A stretch of DNA of 64,000 bases from Acidimicrobiia bacterium. GTDB lineage: Bacteria; Actinomycetota; Acidimicrobiia; Spongiisociales; Spongiisociaceae. The notes beneath the pieces are model-generated. The model saw only the letters and a program-made list of their open reading frames with translations. It ran no database searches and had not been told where the DNA came from. Made by a program: the position numbers and the translations under genes. The DNA lies in NCBI GenBank assembly GCA_011523635.1, contig WTGI01000084.1, forward strand, positions 39,745 through 103,744. The letters run 5' to 3'. Of the stretch, positions 13,032-64,000 are shown piece after piece (within the stretch, counting starts at the first letter, position 1; every line of letters starts with the position of its first letter).

Positions 13032-13673
13032 TTGACTGGTTCACTCAACAAGTACCTAGCCGAGTTGCTGGGGGCGTTCGTACTGATCGGCGTCGGTTCC
13101 ATGGCGATCCTCAGCTCGGGCGGAAGCATCGTTGCCATAGCCTTCGGGTTCGGTCTGGCCCTTCTGATAGCGCTGTACATGTTCGGCTCGGTGTCGGGCG
13201 GTCACTACAACCCTGCCGTCACGCTGGCCCAGCTTATCCGGGGTGAGATCACCGGCGCCGATGCGGTCGGATACATCGTGGCCCAGCTCGCCGGTGCGGT
13301 TCTAGCTTCGGGACTGGTGGCCGCCGTGCTGGGCGCCTCTGCGGTCGGAAGGACTGTGGTGGGGGACGGTTCGGACGTCGGTTCGATCTGGGTTCTGGCG
13401 CTCGAGGCACTGTTCACCGCCTTCCTGGTGCTGGTGATCCTCCGAGTCACCTCGGGCGAGAACGCCACCGCGCCCGTCGTGATCGGTCTGACGCTGGTAG
13501 TGATCCACCTGGCGCTGGTCCCCGTTACGGGCGCCTCCGTCAACCCGGTGCGGAGCCTGGGCCCCGCCATCGTGGCGGCGGACTTCACCGACGCCTGGGC
13601 ATACATCGTGGGCCCGCTGGTGGGTGGTGCGGTAGCGGTCTACGTGGACCGTTTCATCAACACCGAGTCCTGA
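13032..13673 (+). CDS. MIP family channel (aquaporin Z-like)
   Basis: YLAELLG, SGGHYNPAVT, GASVNPVRSLGPA, W.YIVGPLVG; SD GGGAGG before TTG. Confidence 0.93.
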   Translation: MTGSLNKYLAELLGAFVLIGVGSMAILSSGGSIVAIAFGFGLALLIALYMFGSVSGGHYNPAVTLAQLIRGEITGADAVGYIVAQLAGAVLASGLVAAVLGASAVGRTVVGDGSDVGSIWVLALEALFTAFLVLVILRVTSGENATAPVVIGLTLVVIHLALVPVTGASVNPVRSLGPAIVAADFTDAWAYIVGPLVGGAVAVYVDRFINTES

Positions 13674-13674
13674 G

Positions 13675-13699
13675 AAAGGCCTTCCTCCTCAGGCCTTTT
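13675..13699 (+). terminator. Intrinsic terminator after the aquaporin gene
   Basis: AAAGGCCT-tcctcctc-AGGCCTTTT. Confidence 0.6.
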
Positions 13700-13832
13700 G
13701 AGGTACGGGGTCGGTCACCTTCTCCCGGCCCCGTACCTTCCGCCTCCACGCCATCCGTCTCCGGCCGGAGTTCTGGATGCCATGCAGATCCCGCCCGGAT
13801 CGGGAGGACGGACCGCTGATAAGCTTCGCGCC

Positions 13833-14867
13833 ATGACGGAATTCTCCTGGTCGGAGGTGCTGGGAACGATCTCCCGGGGCGGCGACCTCAACCGCACCCA
13901 GGCCCGCCAGGCCATGCGCCAGGTCATGGGCGGACTCGCCTCCCCAGCCCAGATCGCCGGCCTGATCGTGGCGCTCCGGATGAAGGGAGAGACGGTCGAG
14001 GAGATGGGCGGCCTGGTCGACGGCATGGTGGAGGCGGCGGTCCGGGTCGACCTCGGCGACGCCGACCCCGTGGACATCGTGGGTACCGGAGGCGATCGTT
14101 CCGGTACGTTCAACATCTCCACCACCGCCTCCTTTATAGCGGCCGGCGCCGGCATCCCGATCGCCAAGCACGGCAACCGGTCGATGTCGTCCAAATGCGG
14201 CTCGGCGGACGTGCTGGAGGCCCTTGGGGTGATCATCGACCTGCCGGCAGAGAGGAACCGCCGGTTGTTCATGGACACGGGCTACGCGTTCTTCCTGGCG
14301 CCGGTCTACCACCCGGCCATGCGGTTCGCCGGGCCGGTTCGCAAGGAACTCGGCATTCCCACGGTCTTCAACTTCCTGGGACCGTTGAGCAATCCGGCCG
14401 GGGTGCGGAAGTACGCGCTAGGGGTGGCTGACGGGCGCATGGCGGAGCGCATGGTCCGGGTGCTGAGCCTCCGGGGTTCGGAGCGAGCCCTCGTGTTCCA
14501 CGGCTCGGACGGTTTGGACGAGCTCACCCTGAGCGGTCCTTCCGTGGTCTGGCAGCTGGACGGAGGCCAGGTGTCCAGAACCGAGGTTTCGCCCCGAGGG
14601 GTGGGTCTGGGACCGGCGCCCGTGACCGATCTCCTGGGGGGAACGGCCGAGGTGAACGCAGGCATCACCCGCCGTGTTCTGGAAGGCGAACCGGGTCCCT
14701 GCCGGGATGTCACGCTGCTGAACGCGGCGGCCGCCATCGCCGCATCCGGCCGTACGGACGACCTGGCCGAAGCGGTTGCCATAGCCGCCGAGTCGATCGA
14801 CAGCGGTTCGGCCGGCGAGGTCCTGGACAGGGTGGTGGCGCGGAGCCGGGAACTGGCCGCGGGCTGA
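13833..14867 (+). CDS. trpD: Anthranilate phosphoribosyltransferase
   Basis: LRMKGET, DIVGTGGD, TFNISTT, AKHGNR..SS.CGSADVLEALG, FNFLGPL.NP, DGLDE. Confidence 0.96.
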   Translation: MTEFSWSEVLGTISRGGDLNRTQARQAMRQVMGGLASPAQIAGLIVALRMKGETVEEMGGLVDGMVEAAVRVDLGDADPVDIVGTGGDRSGTFNISTTASFIAAGAGIPIAKHGNRSMSSKCGSADVLEALGVIIDLPAERNRRLFMDTGYAFFLAPVYHPAMRFAGPVRKELGIPTVFNFLGPLSNPAGVRKYALGVADGRMAERMVRVLSLRGSERALVFHGSDGLDELTLSGPSVVWQLDGGQVSRTEVSPRGVGLGPAPVTDLLGGTAEVNAGITRRVLEGEPGPCRDVTLLNAAAAIAASGRTDDLAEAVAIAAESIDSGSAGEVLDRVVARSRELAAG

Positions 14868-14940
14868 TCCCGCCAATTCACCGGAGATCTTCATCCGGAT
14901 GGCGCACGTTTACATCCGTCCGATGCTTATCATCCCGGAT

Positions 14941-15690
14941 ATGAGAGGTCGCAATCGAGTGCTGGCCACCGTCCTGGCCGCCGTGGTCGCCGTGGGGGCG
15001 TGCGGAGGCGGCTCGGACGAGCAGGCCACACCCGAACCCGCGGAGCCGGCCACCACTTCAGCGGTGACTACGGCCGCGACCACTGCTCCCAGCCCCACCG
15101 TTTCAGAGGGTACGTCTGCCGAGTCCCCCACGACCACGGCCGCTGCGACTGCCGAGACGACCGTGGCAACGGAACCTGCCGCCACTCCGGAGACGACTGC
15201 GGTCACGGAAACTACCTCCGCTCCGGAACCCACCGCTGCTCCACAGACGACCGTGGCAACGGAACCCGCCTTCGTCCCCGAGGGCCCTCCTATCCCGGCG
15301 TTGACGCTGGAACTGGACGACGGGACCACCTTCGTCACGACCGAAGCCACCCGGCCCGTCCTCTACCTGTTCTGGGCGGAGTGGTGACCGTCATGCCGAC
15401 GGGAGTTACCCGTCGTCGACTCTGTGGCCGCCGAGTACGCCGGCCAGGTGGACGTGATCGCGGTCGCCTGGGCATCGACGTACGACAAGACGGCCTCCGC
15501 AGCCCGCGGATTCCTGAGCTCGGGGGCCACCCGCTGGTTGCTGGATGAGGACAATTCGATCTTCGCCGCCTTCGAGGTGACCTACCAGCCGGTCGGAGTG
15601 TTCGCGGTGAGTGGTGTCGAGGTCAACCGCTGGTTCGGTTCCATCCCCGAGCAGGAGTTCCGCCAAGCAATCACGGACGCCCTGGCGTAG
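14941..15690 (+). CDS. Lipoprotein TlpA/ResA-like thioredoxin with Sec active site (UxxC); probable selenoprotein
   Basis: Lipobox VGAC, Thr/Ala/Pro linker, then PVLYLFWAEW-TGA(15385-15387)-PSCRRELP continuing in frame into ORF 15424..15690 (VIAVA...W.LD...F.V.YQP); SECIS-like hairpin at 15397-15415. Confidence 0.85.
15397..15415 (+). promoter_or_regulatory. Bacterial SECIS-like hairpin
   Basis: CGACGGG-AGTTA-CCCGTCG: perfect 7-bp stem, G at loop position 2, loop 16 nt after the TGA. Confidence 0.75.
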
Positions 15691-15889
15691 CCCCAATTAT
15701 TCATGGATGGGGGTTTGTACGGGTACGGAATGGGAGTTCCGTGTCTTCTGAACTGGGGTTATGGCCATTGGGCCGCCCGATCTTCCGGCCCGCTTTGGAT
15801 CACCGCCGGGTGAAGGGTGGCCACTCGCGAATTATGCGGTCCAAGTGGCCTGATCCAGGTTGGTGTGCTGGGAACATGAATAATCAGGG
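15691..15889. mobile_element. MITE family A, copy 1 (~200 bp, non-coding)
   Basis: TIRs CCCCAATTATTCATG / CATGAATAATCAGGG; flanks GTAG and CTAG; inverted homolog at 23514-23713. Confidence 0.8.
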
Positions 15890-15893
15890 CTAG

Positions 15894-18281
15894 CTACAGG
15901 GCGGTGGCGATGGTGAGGGTGTAGGTGCCCGTTCCATCCCCGAAGCTGGTCACCTCGACGTAGTAGGTGCCTGTGCTCGGCGCCAACCAAATGAGCCGGG
16001 ATGCTGTCGAGTCGCCGTAGTCGTCGTTACCGTCCAGCCATATGCCGTCGGCGTCGTATAGGTCGAGTACGGAGTCTTGGAGGGTTCCGAGGGTTAGGTC
16101 CAGGTCGTAGAACTCCCCCTCTGTGGCTTCGAAGGCGAAGTAGTCGCCGTCGCCCTCGTATTCCATCTCGCCCTCGACGGCCATGCCTAGCTCGACGGCT
16201 GTTGCGTTTGCTGTCGAATTCGGGTGGTCGTCTGTGATGTCCGAGATGGTGATGGTGAGGGTGTAGGTGCCGGTGCTCGTGTCGAAGCTGGTCACCTCGA
16301 CGTAGTAGGTGCCTGTGCTCGGCGCCAACCAAATGAGCCGGGACGCTGTCGAGTCGCCATAGTCGTCGTTGCCGTCCAGCCAGGTGCCGTCGGCGTCGAG
16401 TAGCTCGAGTACGGAGTCCTGGAGGGTTCCGAGGGTCACTTCTATGTCGTAGATTTCGCCCTCTGTGGCTTGGAAGGCGAAGGAGTCAGCGTCGCCTGCG
16501 TATTCCAGTTCTCCTTGGTTGGCCACGTCGAGCTCGACGGCTGTTGCGCCGTCTGCCGAATTCGGGTGGTCGTCTGTGATGTCCGAGACAGTGATGGTCA
16601 GGGTGTAGGCGCCGGTGTCGAAGCCGGTGACTTGGACGTAGTAGCTACCCGTGCTCGGTGCGTACCAGGTTATGTTGTCGTTGCCGGCCTGTCCGGTCAG
16701 CCAGTTGCCGTCGGCGTCGAATATGTCCAGTACCGAGTCCTGGAGGGTTCCGAGGGTTACGTCCAGTTCGTAGAACTCGCCCTCCGTGGCTTCGAAGGTG
16801 AAGAAGTCACGATCGTCTGCATACTCCAACTCGCCCTGGAGGGGCGCACTGACCTCGACGGCTGTTGCGTTTGCTGTCGAATTCGGGTGGTCGTCTGTGA
16901 TGTCTGAGATGGTGATGGTGAGGGTGTAGGTGCCGGTGCCGGGTCCGAAGCTGGTGACTTCGACGTGGTAGGGGCCGGTGCCGGGTGCTTGCCATATGAG
17001 CCGCGATGCTGTCGAGTCGCCGTAGTCGTCGTTACCGGCCAGCGGGTGGCCTTCGGCGTCGTATAGGTCGAGTACGGAGTCTTCGAGGGTTCCGAGCGCG
17101 ACGTCCAGTTCGTAGTACTCGCCCTCTGTGGCTTCGAAGGTGAAGAAGTCACGATCGTCCGCGTACTCCAACTCGCCAGGGACAGACACGCCGATCTCAA
17201 CCGGTGTCGCCTCCCCGAGCAACTCGTCCGAAGGGAGCGCGTCGGCCGCCGACCACGCTAGGTCCGGAACGCAGTCGAACAGGCCGGGGAGGAATTCAAA
17301 GAGCCCGAGGTCGTCGGCGGAGCCCGTGAGGAGGCTTGTCCAGTCGGTGTCGGTTACCCATTCGCGAAGGCAGGATGCTTCCTCCTCGCTGAGGTCTTCG
17401 AGGGTCATGCCGGTTTCCTCGAGCATGGACGAGATGAAAATGTCGGGGGCGCATTCGATCAGATCGGCGGCGAAGCCCATGAGATCGGAGGGGTCGTCGG
17501 CGGAGCCGGTGAGGAGGTTCGTCCAGTCGGTGTCGGTTATCCACTCGCGAAGGCAGGATGCTTCCTCCTCGCTTAGGTCTTCGAGGGTGAGGCCCGTTTC
17601 CTCGAGCATGAGCGAGACGATCAGGTCCCGATTGCAGGCCAAGAACGCGGTGGTGACATCCCCTGTCACCTCCGTGTCATCAATCGACAGGGCCAGCATG
17701 GTGGCAACCACGTCGAGCCCGGCCACCCACTCGGCCAGGCAGGCCTCCGTGTCCGCGTCCAATTCGAATGCCTCGTCCTCTCCCATTCCTGCGACCATCG
17801 TGGAGAGGAATACGGCTTGGGCGGTCTCAGGCGCGAGGCACGAGAAAATCAAGATCACCCACGCCTCCGGTGTCTCTGCCTCCGACATGACCGGCAGGGC
17901 CAGCACCGACTCCAAGGTGTCGCCATCGAACGTGTCGCGGACACACTCCTGCTCGGCTCTGGTAAGAGCGTCGAACACGTCTCCCCATTCGGTGTGGGTG
18001 TCCACCCGGAGATCGAAGTCCGAGGTGGCTCCGGTCGTATCGGGTAGGACCGTCGTCGTGCTGCTCGGCGCGGTTGTCGTGCTGCCCGAAGTCGTTGTTG
18101 TTGGAGTAGTAGCAGTAGTGCTTGGAGTCGTTGTCGTGCTGCTTTCGGCTGTGGAGGTTGACTCCGGCGTCGAGTCGCCCCCGCAACCCGCCAGGGCGAT
18201 GATGACGGCCAGAGCGCCCAATATCGGGATCCAATGGACACGACGAGGCGTCACCGATGACTTCGAAAGACCGCTCGGCAT
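15894..18281 (-). CDS. Acidic surface lipoprotein: Thr-rich linker, Cys-containing helical repeats and 4 PPC (pre-peptidase C-terminal)-like domains
   Basis: Lipobox ALAGC; 2x MLEETG.TLEDLSEEEASCLREW; 4x GE.EY..D.D.F.F.ATEGE.Y...D.TLGTL.DSVL...Y.V.VT.F...G.YTLTI. Confidence 0.8.
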   Translation of the reverse strand: MPSGLSKSSVTPRRVHWIPILGALAVIIALAGCGGDSTPESTSTAESSTTTTPSTTATTPTTTTSGSTTTAPSSTTTVLPDTTGATSDFDLRVDTHTEWGDVFDALTRAEQECVRDTFDGDTLESVLALPVMSEAETPEAWVILIFSCLAPETAQAVFLSTMVAGMGEDEAFELDADTEACLAEWVAGLDVVATMLALSIDDTEVTGDVTTAFLACNRDLIVSLMLEETGLTLEDLSEEEASCLREWITDTDWTNLLTGSADDPSDLMGFAADLIECAPDIFISSMLEETGMTLEDLSEEEASCLREWVTDTDWTSLLTGSADDLGLFEFLPGLFDCVPDLAWSAADALPSDELLGEATPVEIGVSVPGELEYADDRDFFTFEATEGEYYELDVALGTLEDSVLDLYDAEGHPLAGNDDYGDSTASRLIWQAPGTGPYHVEVTSFGPGTGTYTLTITISDITDDHPNSTANATAVEVSAPLQGELEYADDRDFFTFEATEGEFYELDVTLGTLQDSVLDIFDADGNWLTGQAGNDNITWYAPSTGSYYVQVTGFDTGAYTLTITVSDITDDHPNSADGATAVELDVANQGELEYAGDADSFAFQATEGEIYDIEVTLGTLQDSVLELLDADGTWLDGNDDYGDSTASRLIWLAPSTGTYYVEVTSFDTSTGTYTLTITISDITDDHPNSTANATAVELGMAVEGEMEYEGDGDYFAFEATEGEFYDLDLTLGTLQDSVLDLYDADGIWLDGNDDYGDSTASRLIWLAPSTGTYYVEVTSFGDGTGTYTLTIATAL

Positions 18282-60760: not shown

Positions 60761-61360
60761 CTACCGGTTTCCCTCAGCGGACTGGCGGAATTCGCCTACC
60801 TGTCTCGACTCGATTGCCTGGCCGGATAGGAGTTGCTCCAGGGCTCCGGTGAGGGTGAGGGCGTCGGACTCGCCGAGGAACTTCCCGACGATGACGCCAC
60901 CGTAGATGAAGACGGTCTCGGGTACGCCGAAGATGCCGAACTCGATGGCGGCGCGGGAGCCCGGATCGGACAGGTACCGGGTGGCGCCACCCCGGCCCAA
61001 CTCGTCCAGGAAAGTAGTGGCGCGGGCGGGATCGTCCTGGAAGGCGATTCCCAGGAACCGGACCGATCGGTCGTGGTAGGCGTCGGCCGTCGAGACGAGA
61101 TCGGCGTGCTCGTTGCGGCATTGCAGGCACCAGGAGGCGAAGAAGTTGACCACCACCACGTCGTGGGAGCCGCTCAGATCAGCCAGGTTCAAGGAACCGT
61201 TTCCGTCCAGATAGGGGAGGGTCAGGTCGGGAACCGCTGCGCCGATGACCGGTGAGGCGCTCCCGCCGGCATCGTCCCCGAACCGGGCGGCGAAGACGGC
61301 CACCGCCAGGCCGACGACTACCAGCCCGGCTACCAGCAGGTAGCGCCCCCGGGAACTCAT
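60761..61360 (-). CDS. ccmG: TlpA/DsbE thioredoxin (CcmG-like)
   Basis: N-terminal TM, VVNFFASWCLQC, FGIFGVPET; last gene of the ccmF/H cluster. Confidence 0.8.
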   Translation of the reverse strand: MSSRGRYLLVAGLVVVGLAVAVFAARFGDDAGGSASPVIGAAVPDLTLPYLDGNGSLNLADLSGSHDVVVVNFFASWCLQCRNEHADLVSTADAYHDRSVRFLGIAFQDDPARATTFLDELGRGGATRYLSDPGSRAAIEFGIFGVPETVFIYGGVIVGKFLGESDALTLTGALEQLLSGQAIESRQVGEFRQSAEGNR

Positions 61361-62130
61361 CCGCCGGCCCCCGCCAGTCGCCGGGCTTCGGCGACCCATA
61401 CTTCGATCGCCTCCCGGGTCCCTTCGGGGAGGTCCTCCTCGTCCAGCAGAGGTTCCAGATGTTCCAGGGCGCCGGTGGCGTCCGCCTCGGCCAGCAGCAG
61501 CAACCCGAGGAACAGGTGTGCCTCCGCGTAGCCGTCATCTGTGGCCAGGGCCTCGTCCAGGTAGGACCGGGCGATGCCGGCATTGCCCGACTGGAAGGTC
61601 ATCCAGCCGACCCTCGCCAGGGCGCGGGCTCGGCGGGTGCGATCGAGGTCACCGTCCAGAGCGCCCAGGTAGTGGGGGAGGGCGTTCGAGAACTCCCCGG
61701 CCTCGAAGTACCGGTCGGCCAGGCGGAGCCGCATGGCGGCGATCTCGGGTACGTCCTGGTTGGCGGCGATAACCGCTTCCATCTGGTCGTTGGTGACCTC
61801 GGAAAGGTCTACCGGTGCCTCCATGTTGCCGGTCACGAACCCGCCCTCCCTGGGCCGGATTGCCAGGTAGGCGGTCACCGACACCGCGATCACGGCGCCG
61901 ATCAGCAACAACGTCCCCGCCGGGCGCCTCCCGGATCGGCCGGGTGCCGCGTGCTCCGGGACTCCGTCCTCCGCGCCGGCCTCGATGGAGTCCAGTTCTT
62001 GGCGGTACCGCTCGAGCAGCCGCCGGGCGGTGGCGGCGTCGAGCTCCTCCTCGGCCAGTTGCCGGCGTACGTCGAGGATGTCCGCCTCGACCAGGGTCCG
62101 ACGCCGGCTCACCGGAGGCCCGTCACCCAT
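61357..62130 (-). CDS. TPR-containing cytochrome c biogenesis protein (CcmI/CycH-like)
   Basis: One TM followed by TPR-like helices (LADRYFEAGEFSNALPHY; YAEAHLFLGLLL); lies between ccmH and ccmG. Confidence 0.65.
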   Translation of the reverse strand: MGDGPPVSRRRTLVEADILDVRRQLAEEELDAATARRLLERYRQELDSIEAGAEDGVPEHAAPGRSGRRPAGTLLLIGAVIAVSVTAYLAIRPREGGFVTGNMEAPVDLSEVTNDQMEAVIAANQDVPEIAAMRLRLADRYFEAGEFSNALPHYLGALDGDLDRTRRARALARVGWMTFQSGNAGIARSYLDEALATDDGYAEAHLFLGLLLLAEADATGALEHLEPLLDEEDLPEGTREAIEVWVAEARRLAGAGG

Positions 62131-62521
62131 CGGCAGGCTCCGGTCGCCGGATCAGCCGCCGGGCGGCCAGCCAGGCGCCTGCGGCGGCCACACCGGCCGG
62201 CAGCACCCAGAGCAGCACCGTCGTACCGGAGAAGCGGGGATCCAACCGGATGCCCTCGAACCTGTCCTCCAGGTAGTCCAGGATCTGCTCGTCGCTCCAG
62301 CCCTCGTCCACCTTCTCCTCCACGAACCCCAGGATGTCCTGGGCATAGGACGTGGGAGAGTCGGCTATCGACTCCCCCTGGCAGACCGGGCACCGGATCC
62401 GGGCACCGAGCGCCTCCACCCGGTCACGTTCGCTCGGCTCACCGACCACCAGGCCCCAACCGACGATCCCGGCCAGGATCAGGGTGGCGGCGCCCGCCAG
62501 GATGGCGCGGCGGTCAGCCAC
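62123..62521 (-). CDS. ccmH: Cytochrome c-type biogenesis protein CcmH
   Basis: [23 protein letters not shown]...RF, LLWVLP. Confidence 0.9.
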
Positions 62522-64000
62522 GGCCCGCTCCGGCGGTGCGCCGTCGCCGGCCCGCCACGGACGAGAGCGAGAAGCCGGCTCCCGCCGCCGTCACCAGCCC
62601 ACCCAGCCATACCATCCACTGGAGCGGGTAGCTCCACACATCGGCCACCATCCCCGAGCTGTCGAGCCGGGTGAGCGAGACGTACAGGTCTCCCCGCGGC
62701 GTCGAGTACACCGCGGGGGTCACCACCGGGGGGATGCCGGTGCCGTAGCTGTTGAGGCTCGGGGACATTACGGTCACCGCTTCGCCGCCCCGCGACACGT
62801 CCAGGCGTGCGCCCACGACATCCCGGTTCGGCTCGGCGCGCGAGAACGGGGTCCGGTAGGCGATCTCGTAGCCGGCGAACGGAGCGGTCTCGCCCGGGCT
62901 CAGCGCGATGGACCCCGATCCGGCGTGGTTGGCGGAGACCGCGATCCCGACGGCCAGGATCGCCACGCCGACGTGGGATATCTGCCCGCCCCAGTAGCCG
63001 GGATCACGCCTCATCAGGGACCCCGCGGATGCCATCGATCCCTGGCCGGTGGCGGCGGCGCGCCGGCGGACCAGCACTATCAGGTGCCTGGCGATGGCCG
63101 ATACCACGAAGACCGCCAGCAGGACCACCACGATTACGTGCCGGTTGCGGCTCACCAGGAGGATCAGCAGGGCCGCGAGACCCAGGGAGATCCGCACGGG
63201 CGTCCGTACCCGTTGCCACAACACCTGGCGGCGGGCCACCCGGAACGGCGTGATGGGTCCGACACCCATCGCCAGGATCAGGCCGTAGGAGAGGGGCACG
63301 GCCCACCGGTCGAAGAACGGCCGTCCCACGCCCACCGTGTTGCCCTGGAAGGCCTCTACGGCCAGCGGGAACAGGGTGCCCGACAGCACCACGAAGGCGA
63401 ATACCGCCAGGAGCAGGTTGTTGAGGAGGAATGCACCCTCCCGGCTGGCGAGCGAGTCGAGGCGGGGAGCGCTGCCCACCAGGTGGATGCGGGTGGCGAA
63501 CAGGGCCAGGGACCCGGCCAGAACCACCGCCAGGAACGCCAGCAGGACGGGGCCGATGGACGACTGGGTGAAGCTGTGCACCGAGGCGACCACGCCCGAG
63601 CGGGTCAGGAAGGTCCCGAGGATGGTGGCTGCGAAGGCGCCGATCACGAGCACGTAGTTCCAGGACTGGAGCACGCCCCGCCGCATCTGGACCACTGACG
63701 AGTGGATGAAGGCGGTGGCCAGCAACCAGGGGATGAAGGAGGCGTTCTCCACCGGGTCCCAGCCCCAGTAGCCGCCCCAGCCCAGCACCTCGTAGCTCCA
63801 CCAGGCGCCCAGCACGATGCCGGTGGTCAGGAAGCCCCAGGCGGTCAGGGTCCAGGTACGGGTCGTCCGGAGCCAGGTTTCCTCATGGTCGGCGGTGGCC
63901 AGCGAGGCGATACCGACCGCGAACGGCACCGAGAAGCCCACGTAACCCACGTACAGGACGGGCGGGTGAACCGCCATCAGGATGTGGTTCTGGAGGAGGG
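62514..64000 (-). CDS. ccmF: Heme lyase CcmF (5' part outside the window)
   Basis: [55 protein letters not shown]...SVHSF. Confidence 0.96.

What the first reader, a model, noticed from the sequence alone, without database searches (positions are those of the whole stretch)
14941..15690. Hidden selenoprotein: membrane-tethered TlpA-like thioredoxin with a UxxC site and SECIS hairpin
Seen: two short ORFs (14899..15387 and 15424..15690) are in the same frame, separated by one TGA. That TGA sits where the first Cys of a thioredoxin motif belongs: LYLFWAEW-[TGA]-PSC-RRELP, compared with VNFFASW-C-LQC in the CcmG-like protein of this window. Right after it is a perfect hairpin, CGACGGG-AGTTA-CCCGTCG, with a G near the loop start and the loop 16 nt from the UGA. 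The loop uses a TTA Leu codon, rare in high-GC DNA, which suggests RNA-level constraint. Established: bacterial Sec insertion uses UGA plus an immediately downstream SECIS, and UxxC thioredoxin-fold selenoproteins exist. Inference: a 249-aa exported lipoprotein (lipobox VGAC, long Thr-rich tether, Sec149/Cys152), i.e. an extracytoplasmic seleno-oxidoreductase in an actinobacterium that standard annotation would split or call a pseudogene.
Basis: partly seen in the sequence, partly recalled or inferred. Interest (0 to 1): 0.85.

Follow-up and report, generated by a model that had tools for sequence, protein, structure and literature searches.

The report
Selenocysteine thioredoxin-like lipoprotein, split by annotation
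The two short reading frames are one gene for a membrane-anchored, thioredoxin-like redox protein whose catalytic residue is selenocysteine, a real but unsurprising addition to a known class of bacterial selenoproteins that ordinary gene callers cut in two.

Summary
Window 14941..15690 (+) is one 249-codon gene, with TGA (15385-15387) at the first position of a thioredoxin U-x-x-C site.

- **Conservation:** in a 201-genome sample of the same Acidimicrobiia order, 151 genomes have the gene. Of the 150 match rows listed, 146 carry exactly one TGA. In the 43 copies I inspected, the TGA is always at that codon.
- **SECIS hairpin:** the hairpin at 15397-15415 covaries. It forms 96.7% standard pairs, 5 of 7 pairs show compensatory changes, and 0 of 500 shuffles reach this.
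- **Cys forms:** the rare Cys forms (TGC/TGT) have lost the hairpin and the TTG/TTA loop codon.
- **Machinery:** the genome has selA, selB, tRNA-Sec and a Sec-containing selD.
- **Protein:** all 38 distinct orthologues have a lipoprotein signal and a Thr/Pro/Ala-rich tether. The domain folds confidently (pLDDT 96.4) and is closest to M. tuberculosis DsbF and B. subtilis ResA.

TlpA-like UxxC selenoproteins have been catalogued since 2005, so this is a new member of a known kind. Its substrate is unknown. Conserved placement beside trpD and the ccm operon hints at respiratory-protein maturation.

The parts
14941..15690 (+). Complete selenoprotein gene: 249 codons including Sec, stop TAG at 15688-15690. 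An upstream in-frame ATG at 14899 is less likely to be the start.
   Evidence: frame, single TGA; orthologues agree from MRGRNR onward and diverge upstream.
14941..15003 (+). Lipoprotein signal peptide MRGRNRVLATVLAAVVA-VGAC. The lipobox is 14992-15003 and the lipid-modified Cys21 codon is 15001-15003.
   Evidence: a lipobox ([LVA][AG][AG]C-type) after a hydrophobic stretch in 38 of 38 distinct orthologues. lspA and lgt are present in the genome. Lipidation itself is inferred.
15004..15276 (+). Low-complexity Thr/Ala/Pro/Glu-rich tether of about 91 residues.
   Evidence: linker composition T 0.28, A 0.23, P 0.14, E 0.12. Length varies from 23 to 256 residues among orthologues, as expected of a spacer.
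15277..15687 (+). Thioredoxin-fold domain of TlpA/ResA/CcmG/DsbE-DsbF type, 137 residues, spanning the TGA.
   Evidence: Pfam Redoxin 35.2 bits (cut-off 26.6), Thioredoxin and AhpC-TSA. AlphaFold2 pLDDT 96.4, pTM 0.91. Foldseek: 3ios DsbF TM 0.84/0.86, ResA 2f9s 0.88.
15385..15387 (+). UGA read as selenocysteine (Sec149), the first residue of U-P-S-C, directly before helix 1.
   Evidence: TGA at this codon in 43 of 43 copies; 146 of 150 listed rows carry one TGA; residue 37 of the domain precedes helix 38-53.
15394..15396 (+). Resolving cysteine Cys152 (TGC).
   Evidence: Invariant column C40 in alignment A2.
15397..15415 (+). Bacterial SECIS hairpin: 5' arm 15397-15403, loop AGUUA 15404-15408, 3' arm 15409-15415. 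Two further pairs are possible (15394-15395 with 15417-15418) across a 1x1 internal loop. It encodes R-R-E-L-P-V-V.
   Evidence: covariation; energies; the Cys forms lack it.
15403..15411 (+). Glu155-Leu156-Pro157 of the C-x-x-C-x-x-E-x-P motif. The Leu codon TTA (15406-15408) lies in the loop.
   Evidence: E43 and P45 are invariant in A2. They align with DsbF ...CPTCQGEAP.... Loop codon is TTG in 35 and TTA in 2 of 39 Sec forms, but CTG/CTC/CTT/CTA in 12 of the 13 distinct Cys-form genes, with one TTG and one Met.
15589..15591 (+). Conserved proline (Q-P) at the position of the thioredoxin-fold cis-proline.
   Evidence: P105 is invariant in A2. That it is cis is inferred from the fold family.
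13698..14867 (+). Context: trpD (anthranilate phosphoribosyltransferase family) directly upstream on the same strand, ending in an ordinary TGA stop. MIP channel gene at 13032-13673 lies before it.
   Evidence: Pfam. The MIP-trpD-[this gene] order recurs in relatives.
60761..63977 (-). Context: Cys-type CcmG-like thioredoxin (60761-61399) and CcmF (62514-63977) of a System I cytochrome c maturation cluster. This cluster sits next to the selenoprotein gene in most relatives but about 45 kb away here.

Best explanation
Window 14941..15690 is a single gene for an exported, lipid-anchored thiol-disulfide oxidoreductase of the TlpA/ResA/CcmG/DsbE-DsbF class, in which the attacking residue of the C-x-x-C site is selenocysteine (U149-P-S-C152).

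How it is made: the ribosome reaches UGA 15385-15387. SelB loaded with Sec-tRNA(Sec) binds the 7-bp hairpin with its AGUUA loop, which starts 9 nt downstream, and inserts Sec instead of terminating. The hairpin lies inside the reading frame and therefore fixes the peptide R-R-E-L-P-V-V and its codons.

Where it goes: the precursor is exported, lipid-modified at Cys21 and cleaved. A tether of about 90 residues rich in Thr, Ala and Pro holds the thioredoxin domain outside the cytoplasmic membrane.

What it does: the selenolate attacks a substrate disulfide and forms a mixed selenenyl-sulfide. Cys152 resolves this, leaving an internal Se-S bond. The genome's single CcdA/DsbD-type membrane electron carrier most likely re-reduces it.

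Shown here: gene structure, conservation of the UGA, the RNA hairpin, the Sec machinery, the fold and the signal-peptide pattern. Inferred: actual Se incorporation, lipidation, the direction of electron flow (I put reductase/isomerase at about 60% and a DsbE/F-like oxidase at about 25%) and the substrates. The conserved position between trpD and the ccm operon suggests maturation of cytochrome c or other respiratory proteins.
For: (1) One in-frame TGA at the first Cys position of the thioredoxin motif.

(2) TGA is at that exact codon in 43 of 43 copies found in loci L021-L060. The other 4 of the 47 regex hits are a different, neighbouring Cys-type CcmG-like gene.

(3) Best match carries one TGA in 35 of 41 related genomes. 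In an order-wide sample, 151 of 201 genomes have the gene, and 146 of the 150 listed rows carry one TGA. In a phylum-wide sample only 7 of 401 genomes match, all from the same order and all with TGA.

(4) Hairpin, over 39 distinct sequences: 96.7% of 273 cells pair, 5 of 7 pairs have compensatory changes (22 cells), 0 of 500 shuffles reach this, and slid controls pair at 36-75%. RNAalifold independently finds the same helix.

(5) Natural control: 4 Cys forms form 4, 2, 4 and 3 of 7 pairs and fold at -1.2 to -4.5 kcal/mol, against -7.4 to -16.8 for 39 Sec forms. In genus g303, 12 of 12 genomes carry the Cys form. In the 10 loci read, hairpin pairing is 2-5 of 7, even where the peptide RRELPVV is kept with other codons.

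(6) Sec machinery in this genome: selA 428.9 bits, selB adjacent (317.6 bits summed), selD 379.5 bits with its own TGA, tRNA-Sec 77 bits with anticodon TCA.

(7) The Cys form goes with loss of the trait. selA is found in 3 of 12 g303 genomes against 175 of 201 in the order. A strong tRNA-Sec is found in 1 of 5 Cys-form genomes tested.

(8) The fold spans the TGA as one compact domain, pLDDT 96.4. Nearest structures are DsbF 3ios, ResA, DsbE 1lu4 and CcmG.

(9) Lipobox and tether in 38 of 38 orthologues; lgt, lspA and one CcdA are present.

(10) TGA is an ordinary stop elsewhere in the genome, for example at the end of trpD at 14865-14867.
Against: - There is no experimental evidence of Se incorporation, export or lipidation. 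Everything here is comparative.
- The hairpin's energy taken alone is unremarkable for this GC content (z = 0.27).
- No Rfam family matches the region. This is weak evidence, because bacterial SECIS elements are said to be poorly represented there (bioRxiv 10.64898/2026.04.03.716425, passages).
- Two fairly complete genomes with the TGA form gave no selA hit (G001 and G035). Both do have tRNA-Sec and a Sec-type selD, so an assembly gap is likely.
- G555 keeps selA and tRNA-Sec yet has the Cys form, and g17 (8 of 8) and g13 (3 of 3) have selA but lack the gene. The gene is therefore neither necessary for the Sec trait nor strictly tied to it.
- The ccm linkage is absent in this window itself and in 3 of 19 relatives' loci. 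The ccm operon also already has its own Cys-type CcmG, so a role in cytochrome c maturation is only a hint.
Confidence: 0.9

Rival explanations
1. The TGA is a nonsense mutation or sequencing error, and the locus is a pseudogene of an ordinary Cys-type TlpA-like gene.
For: Gene callers treat it this way: public protein sets contain only the fragments.
Against: The same TGA at the same codon appears in 43 of 43 inspected copies and in 146 of 150 listed rows across 12 families of the order, down to about 36% identity. The protein sequence stays conserved downstream of the TGA, including the invariant Cys, Glu, Pro and the QP proline. The hairpin is maintained by compensatory changes.
Confidence: 0.01
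2. There are two separate genes: a short lipoprotein ending at Trp148 and an independent 88-residue protein starting at GTG 15424 (or at the loop's Leu codon).
For: Both pieces are open frames with possible start codons. Database C-terminal fragments begin MPVVD....
Against: Neither piece is a domain. The predicted fold is a single compact thioredoxin domain that needs strands and helix 1 from both sides of the TGA (pLDDT 96.4). The frame is kept across the TGA in every relative. The Cys forms are single uninterrupted genes.
Confidence: 0.01
3. The UGA is read through, but mainly with Cys or Trp from near-cognate tRNAs rather than Sec, or the full-length product is made only when selenium is available. 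In that case termination at UGA would act as a selenium-dependent switch.
For: Nothing here measures which residue is inserted. 28 of 39 sequences have C after the UGA, which I recall to be a leaky termination context in E. coli.
Against: A dedicated, covarying SelB-type hairpin at the canonical distance and a complete Sec machinery would not be needed for plain read-through. Where the Sec machinery is lost, the codon becomes TGC/TGT rather than staying TGA.
Confidence: 0.05
4. Same selenoprotein, but it acts as a disulfide-forming oxidase like M. tuberculosis DsbE/DsbF, or as a surface antioxidant/repair reductant like the pneumococcal Etrx lipoproteins, not in a reductive pathway linked to cytochrome c maturation.
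For: The closest solved relative by sequence and fold is DsbF, which I recall was reported to behave as an oxidant. Etrx1/2 lipoprotein thioredoxins are also among the fold matches. The ccm operon already encodes its own Cys-type CcmG-like protein.
Against: The C-x-x-C-x-x-E-x-P motif is shared with the reductants ResA and CcmG. A CcdA electron carrier is present. Synteny with ccm holds in 16 of 19 relatives' loci. A selenolate is a better nucleophile than oxidant (recalled chemistry).
Confidence: 0.3

Closest known systems
Mycobacterium tuberculosis DsbF (PDB 3ios) and DsbE/MPT53 (PDB 1lu4)
   Same: Actinobacterial, extracytoplasmic thioredoxin-fold proteins. DsbF is the best sequence match among solved structures (3.7e-10, query 141-259) and the best fold match (TM 0.84/0.86, 28% identity). 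Same FWAxW-C-P-T/S-C-x-x-E-x-P-V-V active-site region.
   Different: The mycobacterial proteins use Cys at the first position. This protein uses Sec, carries a SECIS hairpin within the codons after the active site, and has a long Thr/Pro/Ala tether. Identity is only 25-28%.
ResA (Bacillus subtilis), CcmG/DsbE (E. coli, Bradyrhizobium) and TlpA: membrane-tethered reductants of cytochrome c and cytochrome oxidase maturation
   Same: Fold (ResA 2f9s TM 0.88, CcmG 1kng 0.81). C-x-x-C-x-x-E-x-P motif. Extracytoplasmic tethering. The gene lies beside the ccm operon in 16 of 19 relatives' loci.
   Different: Below every NCBIfam cut-off for these families (ResA 28.7 vs 170, TlpA 26.5 vs 230, DsbE 25.1 vs 123). 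Anchored by a lipid rather than a transmembrane helix. Sec replaces Cys. The ccm operon has its own separate Cys-type CcmG-like gene.
[quoted passage not shown]
   Same: Same kind: a thioredoxin-fold thiol-disulfide oxidoreductase with Sec at the first position of UxxC and a SECIS with a small G-containing apical loop, found in marine metagenomes (PMC1088965 tables and passages; PMC13188914 Table 1 passages).
   Different: I could not compare sequences with the listed exemplars, because the accessions were not retrievable and supplements are closed. Whether this Acidimicrobiia clade is the same family or a sister family is therefore open. The passages I read mention neither the lipoprotein anchor, the tether, the order-wide distribution nor the trpD/ccm synteny.
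[quoted passage not shown]
   Same: A ResA/TlpA-like selenoprotein with a WAxxU context.
   Different: Scores 24.6 bits against a cut-off of 300. The motif here is U-x-x-C, not U-G-C. Not a member.
E. coli fdhF-type bacterial SECIS (recalled, not tested against a model)
   Same: A hairpin inside the coding sequence a few nucleotides after the UGA, with a small apical loop containing G-U, read by SelB.
   Different: A short 7-bp stem and 5-nt loop with a different sequence. selD and a second thioredoxin-like selenoprotein in this genome use differently sequenced hairpins at a similar distance.

Membership tests
Bacterial selenoprotein (SelB/SECIS-dependent UGA recoding) | In-frame UGA at a position occupied by Cys in homologues | tested here: met
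   TGA at the first Cys of CxxC in 43 of 43 copies. Cys (TGC/TGT) at the same column in 4 forms from the order sample and in 12 of 12 genomes of genus g303. DsbF has Cys there.
Bacterial selenoprotein (SelB/SECIS-dependent UGA recoding) | Stem-loop immediately downstream of the UGA with a small apical loop containing G, conserved as a structure | tested here: met
   7-bp stem, loop AGUUR, 16 nt from UGA to loop. 96.7% paired, 5 of 7 pairs compensatory, 0 of 500 shuffles reach this. Absent from the Cys forms. The feature is as described in PMC1088965 (passage).
Bacterial selenoprotein (SelB/SECIS-dependent UGA recoding) | selA, selB, selC (tRNA-Sec) and selD in the genome | tested here: met
   all above curated cut-offs. 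ARAGORN gives anticodon TCA.
Bacterial selenoprotein (SelB/SECIS-dependent UGA recoding) | Selenium actually incorporated at the UGA | not testable with these tools
   Needs 75Se labelling or mass spectrometry.
TlpA/ResA/CcmG/DsbE-type thioredoxin-fold oxidoreductase (Pfam Redoxin / AhpC-TSA; cd02966) | Thioredoxin fold with the CxxC at the N-terminus of helix 1, plus the conserved proline of the cis-Pro loop | tested here: met
   AF2 pLDDT 96.4; residue 37 (U) precedes helix 38-53. TM 0.78-0.88 to DsbF, ResA, DsbE and CcmG. P105 is invariant. Cis geometry was not examined.
TlpA/ResA/CcmG/DsbE-type thioredoxin-fold oxidoreductase (Pfam Redoxin / AhpC-TSA; cd02966) | Profile score above the curated cut-off | tested here: met
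   Redoxin 35.2 (cut-off 26.6), AhpC-TSA 29.1 (26), Thioredoxin 32.8 (23.5). cd02966 itself is not in the libraries on hand.
Specific NCBIfam equivalogs (ResA PRK03147, TlpA NF047696, DsbE TIGR00385, StoA, WAxxUGC_long NF041054) | Score above the family's curated cut-off | tested here: not met
   All are far below: 28.7/170, 26.5/230, 25.1/123, 33.1/210 and 24.6/300. I do not file it under any of these.
Bacterial lipoprotein | Signal peptide ending in a lipobox with an invariant Cys, and lgt/lspA in the genome | tested here: met
   VGAC after a basic n-region and a hydrophobic core. Pattern found in 38 of 38 orthologues using my own regex, not a trained predictor. lspA 125.2 bits, lgt 100.9 bits. 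Lipidation itself is not testable here.
'Thiol-disulfide isomerase-like' selenoprotein family of the Sargasso Sea survey | Sequence homology to the family's exemplar sequences | not testable with these tools
   Only the family name, motif (UxxC), domain (cd02966) and an accession were visible. The sequences could not be fetched and supplements are closed.

The most novel reading that the evidence does not exclude
This is a distinct selenoprotein clade that no curated model covers. It is ancestral to a whole order of mostly marine Acidimicrobiia, almost always Sec-dependent, lipid-anchored on a variable tether, and placed between trpD and the System I ccm operon. On this reading, an extracytoplasmic step in maturing cytochrome c or other respiratory proteins in these bacteria depends on selenium, and lineages that drop the Sec machinery must first convert this gene to Cys, as genus g303 appears to have done.
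Probability: 0.3. Interest if true: 0.5.

Novelty: new member of a known kind. Interest (0 to 1): 0.35.

Why it matters
1. **Annotation.** The gene is split or truncated in public protein sets, although it is present in about three quarters of sampled genomes of an Acidimicrobiia order. Those proteomes systematically lack an exported redox enzyme.

2. **A clean natural experiment on how a coding-region SECIS constrains a protein.** In Sec forms the peptide RRELPVV and its rare codons (CGA, TTG/TTA) are held by RNA pairing. The R-to-Q and V-to-A replacements occur together as compensatory base changes. In Cys forms the same peptide may persist, but the codons drift and the hairpin dissolves.

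3. **Loss of the Sec trait caught in progress.** One genus carries the Cys form in 12 of 12 genomes, and selA is found in only 3 of those 12.

4. **A testable lead.** An extracytoplasmic selenoenzyme next to the ccm operon suggests that trace selenium could affect respiratory-chain assembly in these bacteria.

It does not change what is known about the kinds of bacterial selenoproteins.

Tried and rejected
**Rfam.** A scan of 14000-16500 at E <= 10 gave only three chance-level hits and no SECIS.

**Single-sequence fold statistics.** They do not single out the hairpin, so I relied on covariation instead.

**NCBIfam.** No equivalog fits. NF041054 (WAxxUGC) was considered and rejected on score and motif.

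**The search for related loci on genome contigs.** It returned only 2 loci. These were useful for naming the taxon but not for distribution.

**The search for homologous proteins.** It returned only 3 truncated fragments.

**Representative search.** It gave full-length single-domain hits stored with C at the active site that keep RRELPVVD-like peptides (P0006, P0007, P0008). Without their DNA I cannot say whether they are true Cys forms or Sec forms stored as C.

**BSepDB paper (PMC13326102).** None of my six search terms occurred in it.

**Paper searches.**
- 'selenoprotein' + 'Acidimicrobiia' found 2 papers. I read passages of one and saw only the listing of the other; in what I saw, neither describes this gene.
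- selenocysteine/TlpA/selenoprotein/lipoprotein listed nothing relevant among 12 shown.
- These searches are the only basis for saying that I found no description of this clade in print. Supplements, which may list such sequences, were closed.

**Genome-wide reassignment of TGA.** Rejected, because TGA ends ordinary genes such as trpD.

**Function through neighbours.** Synteny with trpD and ccm is real, but it does not identify a substrate. The CcdA gene's own neighbours are unrelated enzymes.

**Locus L078.** This was a mistaken 100-base request and was not used.

**Tree.**
- The rows L022, L025, L043, L059 and L060 were left out as duplicates or near-duplicates.
- My regex also pulled in 4 CcmG-like Cys genes, which fell with the outgroup.
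- L058 sits on a very long branch and resembles the second, SLH-bearing selenoprotein more than this one, yet it is one of the 39 rows of A1 and one of the 38 rows of A2.
- The direction Sec-to-Cys rests on outgroup/midpoint rooting and parsimony. It was not formally tested.

**Unpublished genomes.** G028, G039 and G590 enter only the tallies. No specific claim rests on them.

Full report
**What is in the sequence.** ORFs 14899..15387 and 15424..15690 share a frame and are separated by one TGA (15385-15387). Read through, the product contains ...LYLFWAEW-U-PSC-RRELPVVD.... The perfect hairpin CGACGGG/AGTTA/CCCGTCG occupies 15397-15415. It starts 9 nt after the TGA, so the loop lies 16 nt from it. 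The read-through protein matches Pfam Redoxin, Thioredoxin and AhpC-TSA above their cut-offs, with the TGA at the first Cys of the CxxC site. Taken alone, the hairpin's stability is not unusual for this 66.6% GC genome (z = 0.27; GC). The case therefore rests on comparison with relatives.

**Sec machinery.** The window's genome (3.15 Mb, 91 contigs, 97% complete) encodes:
- selA (428.9 bits);
- selB directly downstream of it (317.6 bits summed);
- selD (379.5 bits), which itself has one in-frame TGA;
- a tRNA-Sec (77 bits; ARAGORN anticodon TCA).

In selD the UGA is followed by its own hairpin at a similar distance. TGA is also used as an ordinary stop, for example at the end of trpD just upstream, so the genome has not reassigned the codon.

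**Conservation of the TGA.**
- Record titles of two related loci place the lineage in the class Acidimicrobiia.
- Among 41 related genomes (including this one), the best match to the protein carries exactly one TGA in 35. The other six have only weak matches.
- In loci L021-L060, 43 of 43 copies of the gene have TGA at precisely the first position of U-x-x-C. The other four of the 47 motif hits are a different, neighbouring Cys-type CcmG-like gene.
- In a sample of 201 genomes of the order, 151 have a match at E <= 1e-15. Of the 150 rows listed, 146 carry one TGA and 4 carry none; 18 weaker rows were not listed.
- In a 401-genome sample of the phylum, only 7 genomes match, all from this order and all with TGA.
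- selA is found in 175 of the 201 order genomes.
- Two fairly complete genomes have the TGA form but gave no selA hit (G001 and G035). Both have tRNA-Sec and a Sec-type selD, so the selA gap is probably an assembly gap.

**The hairpin is a conserved RNA structure.** I aligned 39 distinct 55-nt stretches starting at the TGA. The alignment is ungapped, codon-aligned and not fitted to any structure.
- RNAalifold recovers the helix.
- For the 7-bp helix, 96.7% of 273 cells are standard pairs and 5 of 7 pairs show changes on both sides (22 cells). None of 500 column shuffles reaches any of the five measures. Sliding the 3' arm by 1-3 columns drops pairing to 36-75%.
- The compensatory changes alter the protein in step. 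CGA...GTC (Arg...Val) becomes CAG...GCT (Gln...Ala) in the G014/G019 copies, so the RNA drives coordinated amino-acid replacements.
- The loop Leu codon is TTG in 35 and TTA in 2 of the 39 sequences. Genome-wide, TTG is 8.0% and TTA 0.5% of Leu codons.
- The loop's A-G belongs to an invariant Glu codon that the Cys forms also keep. Only the U-U can therefore be credited to RNA-level constraint.

**Natural control: the Cys forms.**
- The four rows without a stop are genuine TGC/TGT forms of the same gene. At the hairpin positions they form 4, 2, 4 and 3 of 7 pairs and fold at -1.2 to -4.5 kcal/mol. The 39 Sec forms fold at -7.4 to -16.8 kcal/mol. Their Leu codon is CTG or CTC (Met in one).
- Following one of them up, all 12 sampled genomes of genus g303 carry the Cys form. 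In the 10 loci read, the hairpin has 2-5 of 7 pairs. Several keep the peptide C-R-R-E-L-P-V-V but spell it with other codons.
- selA is found in only 3 of these 12 genomes. Among five Cys-form genomes tested, a strong tRNA-Sec (72.8 bits) is found only in G555. The hits of about 50 bits in two others resemble this genome's own second-best hit (47.6 bits), and I take them to be other long-arm tRNAs; that is an inference.
- In a maximum-likelihood tree (50 rows), the Cys forms nest inside Sec clades of their own taxonomic families. L061+L062 sit beside L049 (support 97/79; the pair itself 99/90) and L064 sits beside L052 (98/90). L063 is unresolved.
- With the CcmG-like outgroup, this fits repeated Sec-to-Cys conversion. 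I did not test the direction formally.

**The protein.**
- All 38 distinct orthologues begin with a basic n-region, a hydrophobic core and a lipobox ending in Cys. A Thr/Pro/Ala/Glu/Ser-rich linker of 23-256 residues follows. Conservation begins at MRGRNR, which supports the ATG at 14941 as the start. The genome has lgt and lspA.
- The 137-residue C-terminal domain, modelled from the 38-sequence alignment A2, gives pLDDT 96.4 and pTM 0.91. Sec lies immediately before helix 1.
- Nearest solved structures: M. tuberculosis DsbF (3ios, TM 0.84/0.86, 28% identity), B. subtilis ResA (TM up to 0.88), M. tuberculosis DsbE (1lu4), CcmG, and pneumococcal Etrx lipoproteins. DsbF is also the best match by sequence (3.7e-10).
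- Invariant residues are F-W-A, U, C, the Glu and Pro of C-x-x-C-x-x-E-x-P, the Q-P proline, and W..G near the C-terminus.
- The genome has one CcdA/DsbD-type membrane electron carrier, which could re-reduce the protein.

**Context.**
- In the window the gene follows a MIP channel gene and trpD on the same strand. It converges on a 795-residue PPC-domain protein.
- In 19 loci from other genera and families of the order, the order MIP - trpD - [this gene] recurs. trpD is present in 12 of the 19.
- In 16 of the 19, genes of a System I cytochrome c maturation cluster (a Cys-type ccmG-like gene, a TPR protein, ccmF, ccmE, ccmB, ccmA) lie within the fetched stretch, convergent with this gene (Pfam names).
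- In this genome that cluster lies about 45 kb away (ccmG-like 60761-61399, ccmF 62514-63977).
- This association is a lead to function, not a demonstration. The loci are related to one another, and the ccm operon already has its own thioredoxin.

**What is known and where this sits.**
- The Sargasso Sea survey lists a 'Thiol-disulfide isomerase-like protein' selenoprotein family with UxxC (4 sequences), alongside Sec-containing thioredoxin, glutaredoxin, DsbA-like, DsbG-like and Prx-like families. It describes bacterial SECIS elements as stem-loops just after the UGA with a small G-containing apical loop (PMC1088965; passages and tables).
- A 2026 review tabulates that family under cd02966 (the TlpA-like domain). 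[quoted passage not shown]
- A 2026 preprint reports universal Sec machinery and a Sec-type selD in Actinomarina. The passages I read do not mention a thioredoxin-like selenoprotein, and the word 'thioredoxin' occurs 0 times in it.
- The kind is therefore known. No NCBIfam model reaches its cut-off on this protein, and public protein predictions hold only fragments. I could not fetch the catalogued exemplars, and supplements were closed, so whether this is the same family or a sister family stays open.

**Verdict.**
- Confidence that UGA 15385 is decoded as Sec is about 0.9. Confidence in the reductive, CcdA-fed mechanism and in a respiratory-maturation role is much lower.
- It is a new member of a known kind. 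It is valuable for annotation and as a clear example of SECIS-imposed coding constraint and of Sec-to-Cys reversion, but it would not surprise a selenoprotein specialist.
- Recalled and not tested here: the E. coli fdhF SECIS features, the reported oxidant behaviour of DsbE/DsbF, the role of the ResA Glu, and the chemistry of selenolates.

Noticed in passing
G000:C32, locus L086:758-1876 (-): A second exported thioredoxin-like selenoprotein in the same genome, 373 aa: signal peptide, S-layer-homology (SLH) repeats (Pfam SLH 7.5e-10), then a Redoxin domain with FWFWAEW-U-PTC. A GC-rich hairpin starts at the same distance from the UGA. Relatives show similar TGA-bearing long frames. L058 (G034) resembles this paralogue more than the lipoprotein.
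   Followed up: partly
G000:C90:35467-36396 (-), locus L011: selD (selenophosphate synthetase) is itself a selenoprotein here (…SPGGGU-ASKLG…), with a hairpin about 7 nt after the UGA. G001 and G035 have the same.
   Followed up: partly
L041 (G014:C1:2362900-2366800) and L040/L043 (G019): The selenoprotein gene is present as three tandem copies in G014 and two in G019, each with its own TGA and hairpin. Tether lengths range from 23 to 256 residues.
   Followed up: partly
Genus g303 (G518, G555, G595-G604), loci L088-L097: The whole genus carries the Cys form (12 of 12), and selA is found in only 3 of 12. This looks like a lineage in the course of losing the selenocysteine trait.
   Followed up: partly
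P0042, P0046 (database proteins): Public C-terminal fragments of the gene begin 'MPVVD…', so gene callers have used the loop's TTG Leu codon as a start. N-terminal fragments end at the Trp before the UGA.
   Followed up: no
window 15894..18281 (-): The convergent neighbour is a 795-residue protein with a lipoprotein-like N-terminus (…LAGCGGDS…), a Thr/Ser-rich stretch, internal repeats and several pre-peptidase C-terminal (PPC) domains.
   Followed up: no
window 60761..63977 (-) and loci L065-L084: This Acidimicrobiia order carries a System I (ccmABEF + ccmG-like + TPR protein) cytochrome c maturation cluster. As I recall, the well-studied actinobacteria use System II. I did not check this further.
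   Followed up: no
P0005, P0009, P0011-P0013: The best-scoring database representatives for the domain profile include very long proteins (1000-1300 aa) with 4-8 matched stretches, meaning multiple tandem TlpA-like domains in one chain. Their origin and active-site residues were not examined.
   Followed up: no
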